Positions 8,433 to 13,549 of a stretch of DNA of 64,000 nt are shown here, one piece after another. The notes under the pieces are model-generated. The model did not search any database and was not told the origin of the DNA. It saw only the letters and a program-made list of their open reading frames with translations. The DNA is from an uncultured Bdellovibrionales bacterium. Lineage in GTDB: Bacteria > Bdellovibrionota_C > UBA2361 > SZUA-149 > DAOLCO01. The stretch is from assembly GCA_964612555.1 (NCBI GenBank), contig CAZTBW010000004.1, positions 123,713 to 187,712 on the forward strand, written 5' to 3'. Each line of letters starts with the position of its first letter. Position 1 is the first letter of the stretch. The position numbers were made by a program, and so were the translations under genes.

Positions 8433-9029
8433 CTAATGATTTTCGGCGGATAGATTCACATTTCTCTCCACAATATCAGACTGCCCTCCACTTAGTTCAT
8501 GCGCCCGATATATCAGACTTTGAATTTCTTTTTTAACCGCTTCCTCCCGGGGCTTCTGATCTATGAGGATACCTGCCAGATTTGTAAGCCCATGCACTTC
8601 AAATGGATTCACCTCAAGAGCGGTCCTCAGAAATTCATTTGCCTGCTCTTTCTCACCCCGTAACTCTGCAACATATGCCTTATTAACCCAGGCTCTGGCA
8701 TAAGAAGGGTCTATAAGAATTGCCCGATTAAAAAAACTTTCAGAAGCATCCACTCTCCCTTCACGAAGCGCCACACAACCCAAACCATCCTGCACTTCAG
8801 GTAAATCAGAGTTCATCTGTGCCGCTATTTCAAATGCAGCCGCTGCTTTTTTGAGTACATCATAACTACCCGCATCGAACTCACGCAGATACAAAACTCC
8901 TTTTGCAACAAACGCTGCCGGGTTTTCAGGTGAAGACGGAGACACTTCCTTCGCTATGCCACATGACGTTAAAAAAACGAAGCCACATAGCATACAAAAC
9001 AATAACACTTTTTTTCTCTTATGCCGCAT
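8433..9029 (-). CDS. TPR-repeat lipoprotein, last gene of T3SS-like module
   Basis: Signal peptide + lipobox LTSC, then TPR-like helical repeats; 5' end overlaps sctV stop (start ambiguous 9029/9065). Confidence 0.55.
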   Translation of the reverse strand: MRHKRKKVLLFCMLCGFVFLTSCGIAKEVSPSSPENPAAFVAKGVLYLREFDAGSYDVLKKAAAAFEIAAQMNSDLPEVQDGLGCVALREGRVDASESFFNRAILIDPSYARAWVNKAYVAELRGEKEQANEFLRTALEVNPFEVHGLTNLAGILIDQKPREEAVKKEIQSLIYRAHELSGGQSDIVERNVNLSAENH

Positions 9030-10971
9030 ACTCAAAAGACTCTTCAAAAGACTCCTCCTTTCCATTACCTATCATTGATTTGACAGACACCTTATAGCCA
9101 TTCGGTATCTCATCATAAGAAAAGATATTCAGTTTTGAAGCGTATGGGTGAAGAACATTCCTGAATGGCTCCCTGATAACAGAATGAAGAAGAAGGATTT
9201 TTTTGCTGCTCTCCTCTTTTTGTAACAAAATATCAAGGTCAGAAATAATACATTCTACCACCTCCGGATGTATTTTGATATCTGCTTCACAGTACGATAG
9301 TACCTTCTCTTCCATCTCCTGCCCCAACACCAGCACTTCCAGAGCTTCATCCTTTGGATAATGTCGCATTATCCATTTTGGAATCAGATTTCTCCTCACA
9401 GAGCGCACCGCTTCACTTAAGGAGCCGGAAACAAGTAGGGGAGTGTCTCTATGCTCAACAAAATAAAAATGCTCGGACAACGCTTGAAGCACGCTTAAAA
9501 AATCTCTTACGGACACTCCCTCCTGAACCAGATCACGAAGCACTAAAGTTAAAAAAGTCACATTCATTTTTTCAGGGAGCAACGTATTGATAATATCCAG
9601 ATGATACGGTTCATATAAATCAAGCAGCTTTCGTGTATGTGCATCATTTACAAATTCGGAAATACCGGATGCAAGTTGAGATTTAAGTAAATGTCCAACT
9701 ATTCTGCTCCATGGATCTTTTTCTTTTTGATCTCCGGGAGGTAACAAATCAAAAAGAACCATTCCCCTGGACTGAGAGTGAACAAGAAGTTCTGCCGAAA
9801 TATCACCTCGATGAGGGTCAATATCAAATGAAACATCGGGTAGTAACACACCGGTCATATCAAACAGTTCCGCCCTGATAGCTTCAATGTATTCAGAAAT
9901 AGCCTCTTCCTTCTGAAGCAGCAAAGCTCCCTGTGGACTTAGATTCAACACCAGTGAGGGAAGTATTTTCGGGGAAAATTGATATTCAACCCGCTTATCC
10001 ACACTCCCCTGCGTCAAGCTTTTTCTCGTTTGAAACCAATATAAAATAGAAACTCCGCTAATCCCCATAAAGGGAATAAACGGAAGCCCCGGAACAAGTG
10101 CAAGGAGGAATAACACCGTACCACTTATCAAAAGCACCTTTGGTTCTCTGCAAAGCTGCCCCCCTATCTCATCAGATAAGGCTCCTCCTTCATGCTCACT
10201 CACCCTTGTCACCACCACACCTGCGGCAACCGAAACAAGAACTGCGGGAATTTGTGACACCAAGCCATCACCAATTGTTAAAAGCGTGTACTGAGTTACC
10301 GCATCACCAAATGAAAGCCCATCACGAGTTACCCCAACAATAAAACCCGCAACAATATTTATAACGGTAATACAAAGCCCCACTATTGCATCACCTTTGA
10401 CAAACTTCATGGCACCATCAAGCGCCCCATACAGTTTCGATTCACGATGAAGCTCTCTTCTCTTTTCACGTGCTTCTGCCATACTCAAAAGCCCGGCACG
10501 CATATCCGCATCAATGGACATTTGCTTACCCGGAAGCGCATCAAGAGCAAAACGGGCAGCCACCTCAGCAACCCGCTCAGACCCCTTGGCAATAACGATA
10601 AACTGAATAATGGAAATAATTATGAAAATTACGAGTCCCACAATCGTACTCCCCGCAACTACAAAATTCCCAAACGCAATAATCACGTCCGGAACCTGTA
10701 CTCCACTTAGAATCAGCCTGGTACTTGACACACTAAGTCCCAGTCTAAAAAGAGTAGAGAGCAACAAGAGTGAAGGAAGTGAAGTAAATCGATCAGGCTC
10801 GGAAATAAACAGAGAAGAAAGAAGTAAAATAATGCAAAATGCAATATTAGCCGCAAGAAGGATATCAAGTATCCAGGCGGGAATCGGAAAAATAATCATT
10901 GCCACTACCGTCACCGCGCATAGTGGCAATATTATTTCCCTAATACTGGAACGGGCGTGAGCAAAACCCAT
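9019..10971 (-). CDS. type III secretion export apparatus gate protein, SctV/FlhA (FHIPEP) family
   Basis: 650 aa; N-terminal 8-TM domain with conserved FHIPEP blocks (e.g. RFALDALPGKQMSIDADMRAG, LTIGDGLVSQIPA), large cytoplasmic C-domain. Confidence 0.9.
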   Translation of the reverse strand: MGFAHARSSIREIILPLCAVTVVAMIIFPIPAWILDILLAANIAFCIILLLSSLFISEPDRFTSLPSLLLLSTLFRLGLSVSSTRLILSGVQVPDVIIAFGNFVVAGSTIVGLVIFIIISIIQFIVIAKGSERVAEVAARFALDALPGKQMSIDADMRAGLLSMAEAREKRRELHRESKLYGALDGAMKFVKGDAIVGLCITVINIVAGFIVGVTRDGLSFGDAVTQYTLLTIGDGLVSQIPAVLVSVAAGVVVTRVSEHEGGALSDEIGGQLCREPKVLLISGTVLFLLALVPGLPFIPFMGISGVSILYWFQTRKSLTQGSVDKRVEYQFSPKILPSLVLNLSPQGALLLQKEEAISEYIEAIRAELFDMTGVLLPDVSFDIDPHRGDISAELLVHSQSRGMVLFDLLPPGDQKEKDPWSRIVGHLLKSQLASGISEFVNDAHTRKLLDLYEPYHLDIINTLLPEKMNVTFLTLVLRDLVQEGVSVRDFLSVLQALSEHFYFVEHRDTPLLVSGSLSEAVRSVRRNLIPKWIMRHYPKDEALEVLVLGQEMEEKVLSYCEADIKIHPEVVECIISDLDILLQKEESSKKILLLHSVIREPFRNVLHPYASKLNIFSYDEIPNGYKVSVKSMIGNGKEESFEESFEYAA

Positions 10972-10986
10972 ATTCAGTTCTCGTTT

Positions 10987-11271
10987 TTATCTCATGTTAC
11001 CAATAATGCTTGAAGCCGCCTGATGCCTTTTCTCTTCCAGGTTTGAAAGAAGCATTGCTCTTTGATTTCGCATGTTCATAAACGTATTAAGAACCTGTAG
11101 CGTATCTTCACCCACTACATCACTCATAAGAAACCTTCTGAAAAAATCTACCAGTTCATTATCAGTAGTACCCAGGTTTAACACGACATCTCTTGCTTCA
11201 TTAATAAAATCATCCTTTTTCTGGGTCAGACTCGCCCCTACTGAATGACCATTTGTTGCACCGATTGACAT
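10987..11271 (-). CDS. small T3SS-associated protein (needle/rod/chaperone-sized), unknown
   Basis: 94 aa, helical, ends ...IIGNMR; positioned between sctV and sctQ-like genes. Confidence 0.35.
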   Translation of the reverse strand: MSIGATNGHSVGASLTQKKDDFINEARDVVLNLGTTDNELVDFFRRFLMSDVVGEDTLQVLNTFMNMRNQRAMLLSNLEEKRHQAASSIIGNMR

Positions 11272-12116: not shown

Positions 12117-12864
12117 TGTGAACCGTCATATCTCTTTTTTTTCTGCGCCGTCCTGAAATAAGGATTCCGGATAAAACAAGACACACCACTCCTCCAATCA
12201 CATATATCTTTCGTTCCAGAGGAATATCCCGAACAACTTCCACAAAGGAAGTTGCCTCCCTACTGACCGTTTCATCTACCACTTCTTCTTTCTTTCCAGA
12301 GATATCCGGGTGATCATCAGACACCACCACTACCGAAACCTTTGACGGAGGCACACCACCTCCTTGAGAGACCAGCTCCTTAACCTGTTCTACCTCCAAT
12401 GAGGAAGCAGATTGAACCACCAAAAGTACCGAAGCGGTTCTGTCTTTTGATTGCTCAAGTGAATACGGTTCTGATGTATTCTGATAAATATGAACCCGCG
12501 CATCGAGAACTTCCGGAAGTACCCGCAAAGTCGCAGATAAATTTGAAGCTATCAGTTTATTTGCCCGGGCTTCTTTTTCCTGACGGCTGGAAAACAGATC
12601 GCTTCCATTTCCAATTGATTCAGAGCCACTACTCTCCTTAAGGACTCTTTTACTTTCAAGAATCCTAAGAGCATCAGTAAACCTGGAGCGAGGAACGTCA
12701 ATCACCCATTCTTTAGAAAGATATATCTTCCTTGCATCAATACCCTCAGTCCTGAGTCCAAGCATAACCTTGTTAGCCTCAAGCTCGCTTGAAACATGAA
12801 TCAACTCCTCTCTGCACCCCGAGCATAGCACCGCTACCATGAGCAATAATAACAGTCGTACCAT
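12076..12864 (-). CDS. SctJ-type (YscJ/PrgK/FliF-family) lipoprotein, inner-membrane ring
   Basis: Lipobox LCSGC, motif LSELEANKVMLGLRTEGIDARK and ARVHI block shared with YscJ_FliF family, single C-terminal TM + basic tail; 262 aa (SctJ-like architecture, not FliF-like). Confidence 0.7.
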   Translation of the reverse strand: MVRLLLLLMVAVLCSGCREELIHVSSELEANKVMLGLRTEGIDARKIYLSKEWVIDVPRSRFTDALRILESKRVLKESSGSESIGNGSDLFSSRQEKEARANKLIASNLSATLRVLPEVLDARVHIYQNTSEPYSLEQSKDRTASVLLVVQSASSLEVEQVKELVSQGGGVPPSKVSVVVVSDDHPDISGKKEEVVDETVSREATSFVEVVRDIPLERKIYVIGGVVCLVLSGILISGRRRKKRDMTVHNDLSSFLDEKHED

Positions 12865-12871
12865 AAAGCAC

Positions 12872-13549
12872 CTACAGCAATTCGCCTAGTCTGGCTCTGA
12901 GAATCAACAAAGCCCGACCATGCAACCTGCTGATCCTGCTTTTAGTCATGGCGGGAAACTCTGCGGCTATTTCAGTAAGTGATTTTCCTTCAAAATACTT
13001 TCCTACTATTATTTTCTGCATCTCTTCCGATAACTCTTCAAGGGCGATTCGAAGTTTCCAGACAACCTGCTTTCTGTAGTAGGTATAATCCTGAAGCTCC
13101 TGATCGGTATATGAAATCTCTACCGTATTGTTCTCAGAGTTAATATTTACAGAAATTCCCGCTTCTTCTATTTGAGATTTTACATGAGACAGTTGCGGCA
13201 GTGTTTCAGCAAGGTATAGTCGTTCCTTCTTTTTTTCATAATCATCACCAGCCAGTCTCTTATATTCCAGTCTTGAAAAACCTCCATTACTCTGGAGATA
13301 CTCATACATCGAGCCAACTATTCTGAAATAGCTGTAACTATGAAAGTGATTACCTTTTTCTGTTTTGTATCTTGCCCCTGCCTGACACAGCCCCAGGTAC
13401 GCTGATGAAATAATATCATCCATTTCTGCCTGGCTGTGAGATCGTTTGGAATAAAAACGACACGCGAGGCGTTTTGCATATTCAAGATTATCTTCAACTA
13501 TGTCATTTACATTCAGGTCAATAACATCCGCTAACTGATTTTGCTCCAT
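12872..13549 (-). CDS. sigma-70 family sigma factor, group 3 (FliA/sigma-28-like)
   Basis: 225 aa; region 2 (DIISSAYLGLCQAGARY) and region 4 HTH (KSLTEIAAEF..TKSRISRLHGRAL) typical of FliA/WhiG/SigD. Confidence 0.8.
   Translation of the reverse strand: MEQNQLADVIDLNVNDIVEDNLEYAKRLACRFYSKRSHSQAEMDDIISSAYLGLCQAGARYKTEKGNHFHSYSYFRIVGSMYEYLQSNGGFSRLEYKRLAGDDYEKKKERLYLAETLPQLSHVKSQIEEAGISVNINSENNTVEISYTDQELQDYTYYRKQVVWKLRIALEELSEEMQKIIVGKYFEGKSLTEIAAEFPAMTKSRISRLHGRALLILRARLGELL

What the first reader, a model, noticed from the sequence alone, without database searches (positions are those of the whole stretch)
8433..13549. Compact, incomplete type III secretion-like module ending in a sigma-28-family sigma factor
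Seven co-directional minus-strand genes are tightly packed, with 4-50 nt overlaps. In transcription order they are: a FliA/sigma-28-like sigma factor, an SctJ-type lipoprotein ring protein, an SctQ/FliN SpoA-domain protein, two ~94-aa ORFs of needle/rod/chaperone size, an SctV/FlhA gate protein and a TPR lipoprotein. No SctRSTU, ATPase (SctN) or secretin lies within at least 5 kb on either side. A bona fide flagellin gene sits elsewhere in the window. The ring protein has the injectisome SctJ architecture (lipobox plus one C-terminal TM, 262 aa) rather than FliF's. A sigma-28-type factor embedded in a T3SS locus is a chlamydia-like feature. This may be a minimal or split export apparatus, a hybrid flagellar/injectisome remnant, or a module whose partners lie elsewhere in the genome.
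Basis: partly seen in the sequence, partly recalled or inferred. Interest (0 to 1): 0.78.

Follow-up and report, generated by a model that had tools for sequence, protein, structure and literature searches.

The report
Split, divergent type III secretion module
This is a real seven-gene operon, conserved in dozens of uncultured relatives of Bdellovibrio, that carries only part of a type III secretion machine (membrane ring, export gate, two needle-type proteins, its own sigma factor); its gate protein fits neither the flagellar nor the injectisome branch, and the missing parts are probably encoded elsewhere.

Summary
Seven minus-strand genes (8433-13549) encode a FliA-like sigma factor, an SctJ lipoprotein, a SpoA/SctQ protein, two 94-aa proteins, an FHIPEP gate and a TPR lipoprotein. 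No other T3SS or flagellar export gene lies anywhere in the 64 kb.

New findings:
1. Both 94-aa proteins belong to the SctF needle family (profile-profile probability 96.5% and 84%).
2. The same gene order recurs in at least 26 loci from Oligoflexia, Bdellovibrionota and related MAGs, always among housekeeping genes. It is neither a remnant nor a flhA-fliA flagellar region.
3. The FHIPEP protein belongs to a 111-member clade (bootstrap 100) separate from FlhA and from all known SctV. It scores below both curated cut-offs.
4. A conserved -24/-12-like motif precedes the sigma gene.
5. sctRSTU, sctC and sctD were found in none of 334 kb of such loci. One locus has a FliH/FliI-like pair nearby.

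Best reading (confidence 0.5): this is one conserved piece of a scattered, deep-branching, secretin-less non-flagellar T3SS whose sigma factor drives unlinked partner genes. Whole genomes are needed to show whether those partners exist. I found no published description. Interest is moderate to high; I class it as a new variant of a known kind.

The parts
13614..13627 (-). Conserved promoter-like motif TGGCACGCCTTGCA (-24/-12-like, but the GG..GC spacing is 8 nt instead of the canonical 10), 64 nt upstream of the sigma gene
   Evidence: It is the only match in the 64-kb window. Each of L001 and L081-L084 has exactly one match, always just upstream of the sigma gene. L103 and L109 also have it. 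The spacing was counted from the sequence; the sigma-54 consensus is from my own knowledge.
13589..13602 (-). Short hairpin (TGAGC-TTTG-GCTCA) in the leader just downstream of the motif. The position is conserved across relatives but the sequence is not.
   Evidence: RNAfold on the 55 nt after the motif finds a hairpin at the same place in 6 of 6 loci, each with a different sequence. Its function was not tested.
12872..13549 (-). Group-3 (FliA/WhiG-like) sigma factor, 225 aa, first gene of the operon
   Evidence: Pfam Sigma70_r2 and Sigma70_r4. NCBIfam best hit is FliA_WhiG at 71.2 bits, E 1e-19, below the cut-off of 189.6. phmmer against E. coli FliA gives 2.5e-10. It is 50% identical to the first gene of the L001 module.
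12076..12864 (-). SctJ-type inner-membrane ring lipoprotein, 262 aa (lipobox, then one C-terminal TM segment)
   Evidence: PF01514 4.2e-15. TIGR02544 SctJ scores 81.6 bits, E 5.8e-23, below the cut-off of 162, with no FliF model hit. YscJ 3.8e-10. Lipobox and TM segment are conserved in 6 of 6 loci.
11595..12116 (-). Short SctQ/FliN-like SpoA-domain protein, 173 aa (SpoA at residues 82-150). Deeper relatives have a 290-390-aa full-length form.
   Evidence: PF01052 3e-10. SpaO_YscQ 1.9e-9 against FliN 2.5e-5. Family survey across module loci.
11293..11577 (-). sA: SctF (needle)-family small protein, 94 aa, with a very conserved C-terminus (SNIERSQHESRMAAVRNLRLG). Candidate rod, adaptor or needle subunit.
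   Evidence: hhalign against 24 canonical SctF sequences: 83.9%, E 7.8e-6. Against Myxococcales SctF-like proteins: 93.1%. Against sB: 94.6%. Against SctI: 1.1%. Controls were all 1.2% or lower for sA. It is 72% identical to the L001 copy. No TM segment or signal peptide.
10987..11271 (-). sB: SctF (needle)-family small protein, 94 aa, C-terminus ..AASSIIGNMR
   Evidence: hhalign against canonical SctF: 96.5%, E 1e-9, aligned through to the last residue. The sB profile retrieves 207 representatives, and 17 of 143 scanned match PF09392 T3SS_needle_F; no other Pfam family recurs in more than 2. The AF2 model is three helices, pLDDT 74. The fold search was uninformative.
9019..10971 (-). FHIPEP export-gate protein (SctV/FlhA family), 650 aa, member of a separate deep clade
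   Evidence: PF00771 3.3e-159. TIGR01399 SctV scores 496 (cut-off 692) and TIGR01398 FlhA scores 465 (cut-off 772). NJ tree of 206 sequences: a 111-member clade with bootstrap 100, distinct from the FlhA and SctV groups. All 111 members score 31-90 bits higher on an SctV HMM than on an FlhA HMM.
8433..9065 (-). TPR lipoprotein, 210 aa (probable true start at the ATG at 9029, giving signal peptide MRHKRKKVLLFCMLCGFVFLTSC). Always the last gene of the module.
   Evidence: TPR_2 9.8e-10. Weak PilW, Tgl and PrsT-type TPR lipoprotein hits. The lipobox is conserved in 6 of 6 loci. It is present downstream of the FHIPEP gene in all contexts examined. The AF2 model has low confidence (pLDDT 61).
13697..13723 (-). 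Perfect 13-bp inverted repeat (GCAGCTGATGCAA/TTGCATCAGCTGC) right after the stop codon of the upstream ORF. A likely terminator that insulates the module.
   Evidence: Read directly from the sequence. The upstream ORF 13747-14463 has no homologue in related loci.
15020..15787 (+). Divergently oriented atypical response regulator (REC domain plus about 130 aa). A possible, untested regulator of the module.
   Evidence: Response_reg 7.5e-7. Homologues at 61% and 50% identity lie upstream of the module in L083 and L081, in divergent orientation (gene tables).

Best explanation
The locus is one conserved operon of a divergent, non-flagellar type III secretion-like apparatus found in Oligoflexia, Bdellovibrionota and related lineages. 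It encodes:
- the SctJ lipoprotein ring;
- a reduced SctQ (SpoA) cytoplasmic component;
- the SctV export-gate ring;
- two SctF-family helical subunits, which would be exported and polymerise into a rod- or needle-like periplasmic filament;
- a TPR lipoprotein that probably helps assembly or anchoring on the periplasmic or outer-membrane side;
- as first gene, a dedicated FliA-like sigma factor.

The operon is transcribed from a conserved -24/-12-like promoter. The sigma factor is then proposed to switch on unlinked genes for the parts that must exist for function: an SctRSTU-type export core, a FliH/FliI-like ATPase pair and the substrates.

Shown here: gene identities, operon structure, conservation, the separate FHIPEP clade and the SctF-family membership of the small proteins.
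Inferred: that partner genes exist elsewhere, that the sigma factor controls them, the role of the TPR protein and any secretion activity.
For: - Domain assignments.
- The same gene order (sigma, SctJ, 0-2 extra genes, SpoA, sA, sometimes sB, FHIPEP, TPR) appears in window, L001, L004, L068, L081-L084, L096 and L099-L114. These loci sit among housekeeping genes with partial flank synteny (6-phosphogluconolactonase, response regulator). This argues for long vertical inheritance under selection.
- sA and sB are SctF-family proteins. They lack signal peptides, so they need a T3S export core.
- The FHIPEP clade has bootstrap 100, the FlhA references split off with bootstrap 100, and all 111 members lean towards SctV by 31-90 bits.
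- The ring protein is SctJ-type, with no FliF hit.
- In L105 a FliH-like gene and a FliI/SctN-like ATPase lie 3.6 kb from the module. The ATPase is as ambiguous as the gate protein (SctN 453, FliI 442, both below cut-offs near 610).
- A relative of that ATPase (P0201) and a module SctV (P0103) are both listed with a longest contig of 449,116 bp, so they probably share one contig. The same MurJ-FliH-FliI cassette occurs in an Oligoflexia MAG.
- The promoter motif is conserved in 8 loci. The deeper clade instead has a sigma-28-type GAAACTTT-N11-GCCGATAA upstream of the sigma gene.
Against: - No SctR, SctS, SctT, SctU, SctC or SctD, and no FliP, FliQ, FliR or FlhB, was seen in 334 kb of 26 module loci. 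Their existence elsewhere is pure inference, because whole genomes could not be searched.
- The FliH/FliI cassette may simply be the flagellar ATPase. It sits next to murJ, as flagellar genes do in E. coli, and near an orphan FliG in L115/L116.
- The tree is neighbour-joining with only 8 FlhA sequences and none from Bdellovibrionota. The C-terminal domain of the clade is very divergent, so long-branch effects are possible.
- The regulon of the sigma factor is unknown.
- The promoter motif has non-canonical spacing for sigma-54.
Confidence: 0.5

Rival explanations
1. It is an accessory module that plugs into the flagellar export machinery. The organism has a single FliPQR/FlhB core and a single FliH/FliI ATPase, both flagellar. 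This operon supplies an alternative gate (an SctV paralogue), ring (SctJ) and needle-type subunits, building a second, non-rotating structure on shared parts, or acting as a secretion-linked checkpoint for its own sigma factor.
For: - The organism is flagellated: flagellin at 25671-27707 and FlgO.
- No second export core was seen near any of 26 modules.
- The only ATPase found near a module lies in a MurJ-FliH-FliI cassette of flagellar flavour, near an orphan FliG and a FliK-like gene.
- The sigma factor is FliA-like, and the deeper clade has a sigma-28-type promoter.
Against: - From general knowledge, no T3SS is known to share its SctRST/FliPQR core between two structures.
- The SctJ ring and the SctF-type subunits are injectisome-type parts that co-evolve with their own core.
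- That ATPase scores far below the FliI equivalog cut-offs (442 vs 619), which is unlike an ordinary flagellar FliI.
Confidence: 0.2
2. It is part of the flagellum itself. In this lineage flagellar genes are scattered and divergent. This operon would be the lineage's fliA...fliN...flhA region, with an SctJ-like ring protein and rod-like small proteins that only look like injectisome parts because of fast evolution.
For: - PGAP labels several clade members 'flagellar biosynthesis protein FlhA'.
- The FlhA model scores nearly as high as the SctV model (465 vs 496).
- Flagellar-type genes are scattered as singletons or pairs in related MAGs (FliG alone, FliH-FliI, FliK-like).
- The sigma factor's best match is FliA.
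Against: - There are no flagellar genes in the flanks of any module.
- The ring protein is a 262-aa SctJ lipoprotein lacking the FliF architecture.
- The small proteins match SctF profiles, not FliE, FlgB or FlgC.
- The eight FlhA sequences (five references plus L034, L072 and L080) form their own group with bootstrap 100, and all clade members prefer the SctV HMM.
Confidence: 0.12
3. It is a decaying remnant of a once complete T3SS or flagellar cluster and has no function.
For: The component set is incomplete. SctQ is shortened to 173 aa in this sub-lineage, with the N-terminal part split off as separate small ORFs in relatives.
Against: - All reading frames are intact.
- The same order is kept across a clade whose FHIPEP proteins have diverged to about 37-40% identity.
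- sA remains 72% identical between window and L001.
- Lipoboxes and a promoter motif are conserved.
- The genes are identical to called genes in public assemblies.
Confidence: 0.03

Closest known systems
Non-flagellar T3SS (injectisome) basal body: SctJ, SctQ, SctF/SctI, SctV as in Ysc, Mxi-Spa and SPI-1
   Same: It has an SctJ lipoprotein with a C-terminal TM segment, a SpoA-domain SctQ, SctF-family helical subunits ending in ..IIxNxR, and an FHIPEP gate. The FHIPEP protein leans towards SctV over FlhA in HMM scores.
   Different: No sctRSTU, sctN, sctL, sctD, sctC, gatekeeper, tip or translocon genes lie in cis. The FHIPEP, SctJ and SctQ scores are all far below the curated equivalog cut-offs. 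The FHIPEP clade branches outside all sampled SctV, including the Myxococcales, Chlamydiae and Desulfovibrionaceae sequences. It is headed by a FliA-like sigma factor and ends with a TPR lipoprotein.
Myxococcus xanthus / Cystobacterineae 'needle-less' T3SS* (Abby and Rocha 2012, PMC3459982; review PMC12428579)
   Same: Both are secretin-less, deep-branching non-flagellar T3SS-like systems in a predatory 'deltaproteobacterial' lineage. Both are vertically inherited and conserved despite missing canonical parts.
   Different: The Myxococcales loci contain the export apparatus (SctRSTUV), the ATPase, SctJ and an inner-rod protein, and are described as lacking SctF (PMC3459982). This module is the opposite: SctF-type genes are present, and RSTU and the ATPase are absent from the locus. 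Its SctV clade is distinct from the Myxococcales SctV.
Chlamydial split T3SS and orphan flagellar homologues (FlhA next to sigma-28)
   Same: T3SS genes are scattered over several loci. An FHIPEP gene is linked to a sigma-28-family sigma factor.
   Different: Scores on the chlamydial models are far below cut-off (NF004571 242 vs 670; NF004572 42.7 vs 378). Chlamydial SctV sequences (L007, L045) fall in the ordinary SctV group. The gene content of the locus is different.
Sigma factors embedded in T3SS regulons: FliA/FlgM in flagella, HrpL in Hrp1 systems (own knowledge, not tested here)
   Same: A dedicated alternative sigma factor is encoded with T3SS structural genes. In Pseudomonas syringae, hrpL is itself transcribed from a sigma-54 promoter, which parallels the -24/-12-like motif seen here.
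   Different: HrpL is an ECF sigma factor, whereas this one is group-3 and FliA-like. No FlgM-like anti-sigma factor was detected (hhalign against FlgM at most 6.7%). The promoter spacing is 1-2 bp shorter than canonical sigma-54.

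Membership tests
FHIPEP superfamily (PF00771) | Pfam gathering score met over the TM and cytoplasmic domains | tested here: met
   531.9 bits against a cut-off of 29.1.
SctV equivalog (TIGR01399) | Score at or above the curated cut-off of 692 | tested here: not met
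   496 bits. The clade is separate from the 83 sampled SctV sequences in the tree.
Flagellar FlhA equivalog (TIGR01398) / ordinary flhA-fliA flagellar region | Score at or above the cut-off of 772, plus flanking flagellar genes (flhB, flhF, flhG, fliF) | tested here: not met
   465 bits. No flagellar gene is adjacent in the window or in 25 related loci. The eight FlhA sequences in the tree split off with bootstrap 100.
SctJ (TIGR02544 / PF01514) | YscJ_FliF domain, N-terminal lipobox, single C-terminal TM segment, about 250 aa | tested here: met
   PF01514 scores 56.5 against 24.4. The lipobox and TM segment are conserved. However, the TIGR02544 equivalog score of 81.6 is below its cut-off of 162, so this is a divergent member.
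SctQ / FliN SpoA family (PF01052) | C-terminal SpoA domain. Full-length SctQ is about 300 aa. | tested here: inconclusive
   The SpoA domain is met (40.3 against 23.8). The protein is only 173 aa, and SpaO_YscQ scores 37.9 against 100.8. Deeper relatives have 290-390-aa forms.
SctF needle family (PF09392) | Helical hairpin of about 80-100 aa with a conserved C-terminal helix; match to the family profile | tested here: met
   The window proteins have no direct Pfam hit. Profile-profile comparison to 24 canonical SctF sequences gives 96.5% for sB and 83.9% for sA, with controls at or below 7%. One relative hits PF09392 at 6.4e-5. Seventeen of 143 sB-profile hits carry PF09392. Membership is therefore at the distant-homologue level.
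Complete NF-T3SS locus (Abby and Rocha / TXSScan-type definition: at least 7 of 8 core genes plus a secretin, clustered or scattered) | Presence of SctC, SctJ, SctN, SctQ, SctR, SctS, SctT, SctU and SctV | tested here: not met
   Only SctJ, SctQ and SctV are present in the locus and in the 64-kb window.
FliA/WhiG sigma-28 subfamily (TIGR02479) | Score at or above the cut-off of 189.6; regions 2, 3 and 4; recognition of TAAA-N15-GCCGATAA promoters | tested here: not met
   71.2 bits, the best of all sigma models. Only regions 2 and 4 are detected. There is no GCCGATAA in the window. A sigma-28-type promoter precedes the sigma gene only in the deeper clade (L004).
Sigma-54-dependent promoter | TGGCAC-N5-TTGCW (GG and GC separated by 10 nt) and a nearby enhancer-binding protein | tested here: not met
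   Both hexamers are conserved in 8 loci, but the spacing is N3 or N4. No Sigma54_activat gene was found in the ORFs of the window that were scanned against Pfam.
Myxococcales T3SS* | Locus with SctRSTUV, SctN, SctJ and SctI; no SctF; no secretin | tested here: not met
   RSTU and N are absent here and SctF-type genes are present. Definition taken from PMC3459982.

The most novel reading that the evidence does not exclude
The operon marks a third, previously unrecognised lineage of type III secretion machinery. It is neither flagellum nor classical injectisome, and it is widespread in Oligoflexia, Bdellovibrionota and allied uncultured 'deltaproteobacteria'. It has no secretin in the locus but keeps SctF-type subunits, is controlled by a flagellar-type (FliA-like) sigma factor, and may work with FliH-, FliI-, FliK- and FliG-like orphan genes. 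That would make it a living relative of the secretin-less, SctF-bearing intermediate that Abby and Rocha predicted between the flagellum and the injectisome. It could build a periplasmic or contact-dependent structure in predatory or host-associated bacteria.
Probability: 0.3. Interest if true: 0.85.

Novelty: new variant of a known kind. Interest (0 to 1): 0.66.

Why it matters
If the module belongs to a distinct early-branching T3SS lineage, it supplies a missing comparison point for how the injectisome arose from the flagellum. It combines flagellar-style regulation (a FliA-like sigma factor) with injectisome-style parts (an SctJ ring and SctF subunits). No secretin lies in any of the module loci examined.

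It also flags about 100 database proteins that are currently labelled 'FlhA' or 'hypothetical' and are probably mis-annotated or un-annotated.

It points to a possible contact-dependent weapon or envelope structure in Oligoflexia and Bdellovibrionota, groups known for predation and host association. It also gives a compact, testable operon for genetics and cryo-tomography.

If the partners turn out to be an ordinary second T3SS locus, the finding shrinks to a new split injectisome family.

Tried and rejected
- PDB sequence search with profiles of the two small proteins gave no relevant hits.
- Foldseek of the AF2 model of sB against the PDB gave no significant match. The MxiH needle appeared only at rank 25, E 4.5. 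This is uninformative for a small helical protein.
- The AF2 model of the TPR lipoprotein without an alignment had low confidence (pLDDT 61), so I did not search with it.
- Looking up the window's own FHIPEP protein to extend the contig failed because it is not indexed.
- FlgM-like anti-sigma reading of the 94-aa ORFs: hhalign at most 6.7%. Rejected in favour of SctF.
- SctI (inner rod) assignment for sA: 1.1% against an SctI profile. My first impression from memory that sA resembled SctI or FliE was backed only by a weak rank order.
- Canonical sigma-28 promoter in the window, including upstream of the flagellin gene: none found.
- I first read the hhalign result against a contaminated alignment (the flagellin P0125 had slipped in) and redid it. 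I also checked that the SctF reference alignment held no module proteins, so there was no circularity. I then split it into canonical SctF, Myxococcales and SctI subsets.
- Five literature searches (Bdellovibrionota, Oligoflexia, Silvanigrella or Bdellovibrio, combined with T3SS, SctV or injectisome) found no description of this module.
- Whole-genome presence or absence of sctRSTU, sctN and sctC could not be tested.

Full report
**Observation**

The seven minus-strand ORFs are present exactly as described. Five of them are identical to gene calls on a public NCBI contig of 246,747 bp.

Pfam assigns the following:
- Sigma70_r2 and Sigma70_r4 to 12872-13549.
- YscJ_FliF to 12076-12864.
- FliMN_C (SpoA) to 11595-12116.
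- FHIPEP (E 3e-159) to 9019-10971.
- TPR repeats to 8433-9065.
- Nothing to the two 94-aa ORFs.

NCBIfam refines this:
- The sigma factor's best model is FliA/WhiG (71 bits, cut-off 190).
- The ring protein's only convincing model is SctJ (82 bits, cut-off 162; no FliF hit).
- The SpoA protein prefers SctQ (1.9e-9) over FliN (2.5e-5).
- The FHIPEP protein scores 496 on SctV and 465 on FlhA, both far below the curated cut-offs of 692 and 772.

So every recognisable component is a divergent member of its family. SctJ and the TPR protein both carry lipoboxes, and SctJ has one C-terminal TM segment. These features recur in all relatives checked.

Only two junctions overlap (41 and 47 nt). The others are gaps of 7-21 nt, still consistent with one operon. 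A perfect 13-bp inverted repeat after the upstream ORF (13697-13723) insulates the module.

**Surroundings**

I scanned about 55 ORFs covering the whole 64-kb window against Pfam. I also scanned all ORFs with 61 Mxi-Spa, Ysc and E. coli flagellar reference proteins. Apart from the module, the only motility-related genes are a 678-aa flagellin (25671-27707) and a FlgO homologue (3133-3936).

The immediate flanks are 6-phosphogluconolactonase, a periplasmic binding protein, RNase P RNA, a response regulator and TatA/TatC. This is therefore not an flhA...fliA flagellar region.

**Relatives**

A genome scan with the FHIPEP protein found an Oligoflexia MAG (L001, 60% identity) and a Bdellovibrionales MAG (L002, 43%). 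All other hits were about 33-37% identical over most of the protein, and nearly all proved to be NF-T3SS SctV of Myxococcales, Desulfovibrionaceae and PVC bacteria. The large protein database holds dozens more at 40-74% identity. Many are labelled 'FlhA' or 'FHIPEP family' from Bdellovibrionota, Oligoflexia, Deltaproteobacteria or Dadabacteria MAGs.

Gene-context look-ups all show the same order: sigma, SctJ, 0-2 unknown genes, SpoA, small protein(s), FHIPEP, TPR lipoprotein. These include contigs of 3.26 Mb, 470 kb, 363 kb and 295 kb. All sit among housekeeping genes. A metagenome scan with the sA protein added 16 loci.

In total, 334 kb from 26 module loci contain no SctR, SctS, SctT, SctU, SctC, SctD, FliP, FliQ, FliR, FlhB, FliF or FliG homologue detectable by phmmer. 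Conservation of order, lipoboxes and sequence excludes a decaying remnant. For example, sA is 72% identical between window and L001, where the gate protein is 60% identical.

**The two 94-aa ORFs**

Neither hits Pfam or the PDB by sequence. I built family alignments and, independently, SctF and SctI alignments from annotated MxiH, YscF, MxiI and YscI plus their homologues in the NF-T3SS loci. No module sequence was included.

| Comparison (hhalign) | Probability | E-value |
|---|---|---|
| sB vs 24 canonical SctF | 96.5% | 1e-9 (aligned to the last residue) |
| sA vs 24 canonical SctF | 83.9% | 7.8e-6 |
| sA vs sB | 94.6% | 6.9e-8 |
| sB, sA vs SctI | 3.3%, 1.1% | 0.013, 0.051 |
| Either vs 18 other small T3SS or flagellar proteins, including FlgM, FliE, FlgB, YscX, YscE | at most 6.7% | - |
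| Calibration: canonical SctF vs SctI | 92.4% | 5.3e-7 |

There are two independent checks. One relative hits PF09392 directly (6.4e-5). An exhaustive profile search with sB found 207 representatives. Of 143 scanned, 17 carry PF09392, and no other family recurs in more than 2.

The AF2 model of sB is a three-helix hairpin-like fold (pLDDT 74), but Foldseek was uninformative.

Both ORFs are therefore needle-family (SctF) paralogues. Because they lack signal peptides, they imply export by a type III gate.

**Where the gate protein belongs**

I built a neighbour-joining tree of 206 FHIPEP proteins (612 columns, 100 bootstraps). It included five annotated FlhA (E. coli, Ralstonia, Azospirillum, Sulfitobacter, Acetoanaerobium) and four annotated SctV (MxiA, YscV, InvA, Phyllobacterium). 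It shows three groups:
- FlhA: 8 sequences, split supported by bootstrap 100.
- Known SctV: 83 sequences, including Myxococcales and Chlamydiae.
- The window's clade: 111 sequences, bootstrap 100, on a long stem.

The branching between the window's clade and SctV is unresolved. All 111 members score 31-90 bits higher on an 8-sequence SctV HMM than on the 8-sequence FlhA HMM. If the root lies among flagellar sequences, as argued by Abby and Rocha (PMC3459982), the clade is a sister or early branch of all non-flagellar SctV.

Caveats: this is a distance method, FlhA sampling is sparse with no Bdellovibrionota sequence, and the C-terminal domain is very divergent.

**Regulation**

Upstream of the sigma gene lies TGGCACGCCTTGCA (13614-13627). 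It is the only such match in the window. A single equivalent match sits at the same place in L001, L081-L084, L103 and L109. Each is followed by a hairpin of non-conserved sequence.

The two elements resemble sigma-54 -24/-12 boxes but are 1-2 bp too close, so the holoenzyme is unresolved. In the deeper clade (L004) the sigma gene is instead preceded by GAAACTTT-N11-GCCGATAA, a near-consensus sigma-28 promoter. This hints that the sigma factor derives from FliA and is autoregulated or flagellum-coupled there.

A divergent atypical response regulator (15020-15787) has 50-61% homologues upstream of the module in two relatives.

**Missing parts**

The only T3SS-type genes ever seen near a module are in L105. 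There, a FliH-like gene and a FliI/SctN-family ATPase lie 3.6 kb downstream, together with a FliK-like gene.

That ATPase is as ambiguous as the gate protein (SctN 453, FliI 442; cut-offs 605 and 619). Its relatives form MurJ-FliH-FliI cassettes, including one in an Oligoflexia MAG. One relative (P0201) and a module SctV (P0103) are both listed with a longest contig of 449,116 bp, so they probably share a contig.

These could be the module's partners. They could equally be the flagellar ATPase in a genome with scattered flagellar genes, since an orphan FliG lies nearby in L115/L116 and murJ neighbours flagellar genes in E. coli. I could not scan whole genomes, so the existence of a second SctRSTU set remains inferred.

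**Interpretation**

The most likely reading (confidence about 0.5) is that this is one conserved operon of a scattered, deep-branching, non-flagellar T3SS-like apparatus. It would provide the ring, the gate, part of the cytoplasmic platform, needle-type subunits, an envelope lipoprotein and the system's own sigma factor. That sigma factor would then activate unlinked partner genes.

Rivals:
- A module sharing the flagellar core (0.2).
- A divergent piece of the flagellum itself (0.12).
- A remnant (0.03).

**Comparison with known systems**

- It is not a member of the injectisome equivalogs, because the scores are below cut-off and the core genes are absent.
- It is not the Myxococcales T3SS*, which has RSTUV plus the ATPase and is reported to lack SctF (PMC3459982, PMC12428579).
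- It is not the chlamydial set, because the chlamydial models score far below cut-off.

It does resemble the secretin-less, SctF-bearing ancestral intermediate postulated by Abby and Rocha. Five literature searches found no description of it.

**Verdict**

The feature is real and conserved, and it is currently mis-annotated or un-annotated in databases. I class it as a new variant of a known kind. It has a 0.3 chance of representing a genuinely separate T3SS lineage of evolutionary interest. Interest score: 0.66.

Noticed in passing
window 25671-27707 (-) and leader ~27765-27835: The flagellin is 678 aa, and its variable middle carries PD40/WD40-like beta-propeller repeats (PD40 1.2e-18). Its 5' leader contains a long inverted repeat (ggaatgtttttgtctgttttgc ... 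gcaaaacagacaaaaacattcc).
   Followed up: no
L006, L013, L035, L040, L079 (Myxococcales T3SS loci): These loci encode small proteins ending ..SIIGNMK or ..INNMR that match the canonical SctF profile (hhalign 96.8%, E 2e-10). The Myxococcales T3SS* is nevertheless described in the literature as lacking SctF and being 'needle-less'. They may be what was called the inner-rod protein.
   Followed up: partly
L097 2266-4383; L098 422-2485 (proteins P0110, P0116, P0117, P0120): A small separate group of orphan FHIPEP genes with no T3SS neighbours. It branches between the module clade and SctV. One member lies next to a sigma-54 activator gene.
   Followed up: partly
L105 5802-10529; L115/L116; L117; L118: There are conserved MurJ-FliH-FliI cassettes whose ATPase fits neither the SctN nor the FliI equivalog models. 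L115/L116 also have a stand-alone FliG and a FliK-like gene. These flagellar-type genes are scattered as singletons or pairs in these MAGs.
   Followed up: partly
window 14526-14871 (-): Bacterial RNase P RNA class A (245 bits). It lies between the module's upstream ORF and the divergent response regulator.
   Followed up: no
window 13747-14463 (-): A 238-aa ORF directly upstream of the module has no Pfam or NCBIfam hit and no homologue in any related locus. It is separated from the module by a perfect 13-bp hairpin.
   Followed up: partly
window 24225-25580 (+): A protein with Schlafen AlbA_2 and HATPase_c_4 domains (a putative DNA-binding or defence-type protein), next to an unannotated 130-aa ORF.
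   Followed up: no
window 8096-8320 (-) and 7388-8062 (-): A 74-aa ORF followed by 6-phosphogluconolactonase sits downstream of the TPR gene. L001 has a homologue of the small ORF (53% identical) beside its 6-phosphogluconolactonase; L084 also has a small ORF before that enzyme, but homology was not shown. The small ORF appears to travel with the enzyme rather than with the module.
   Followed up: partly
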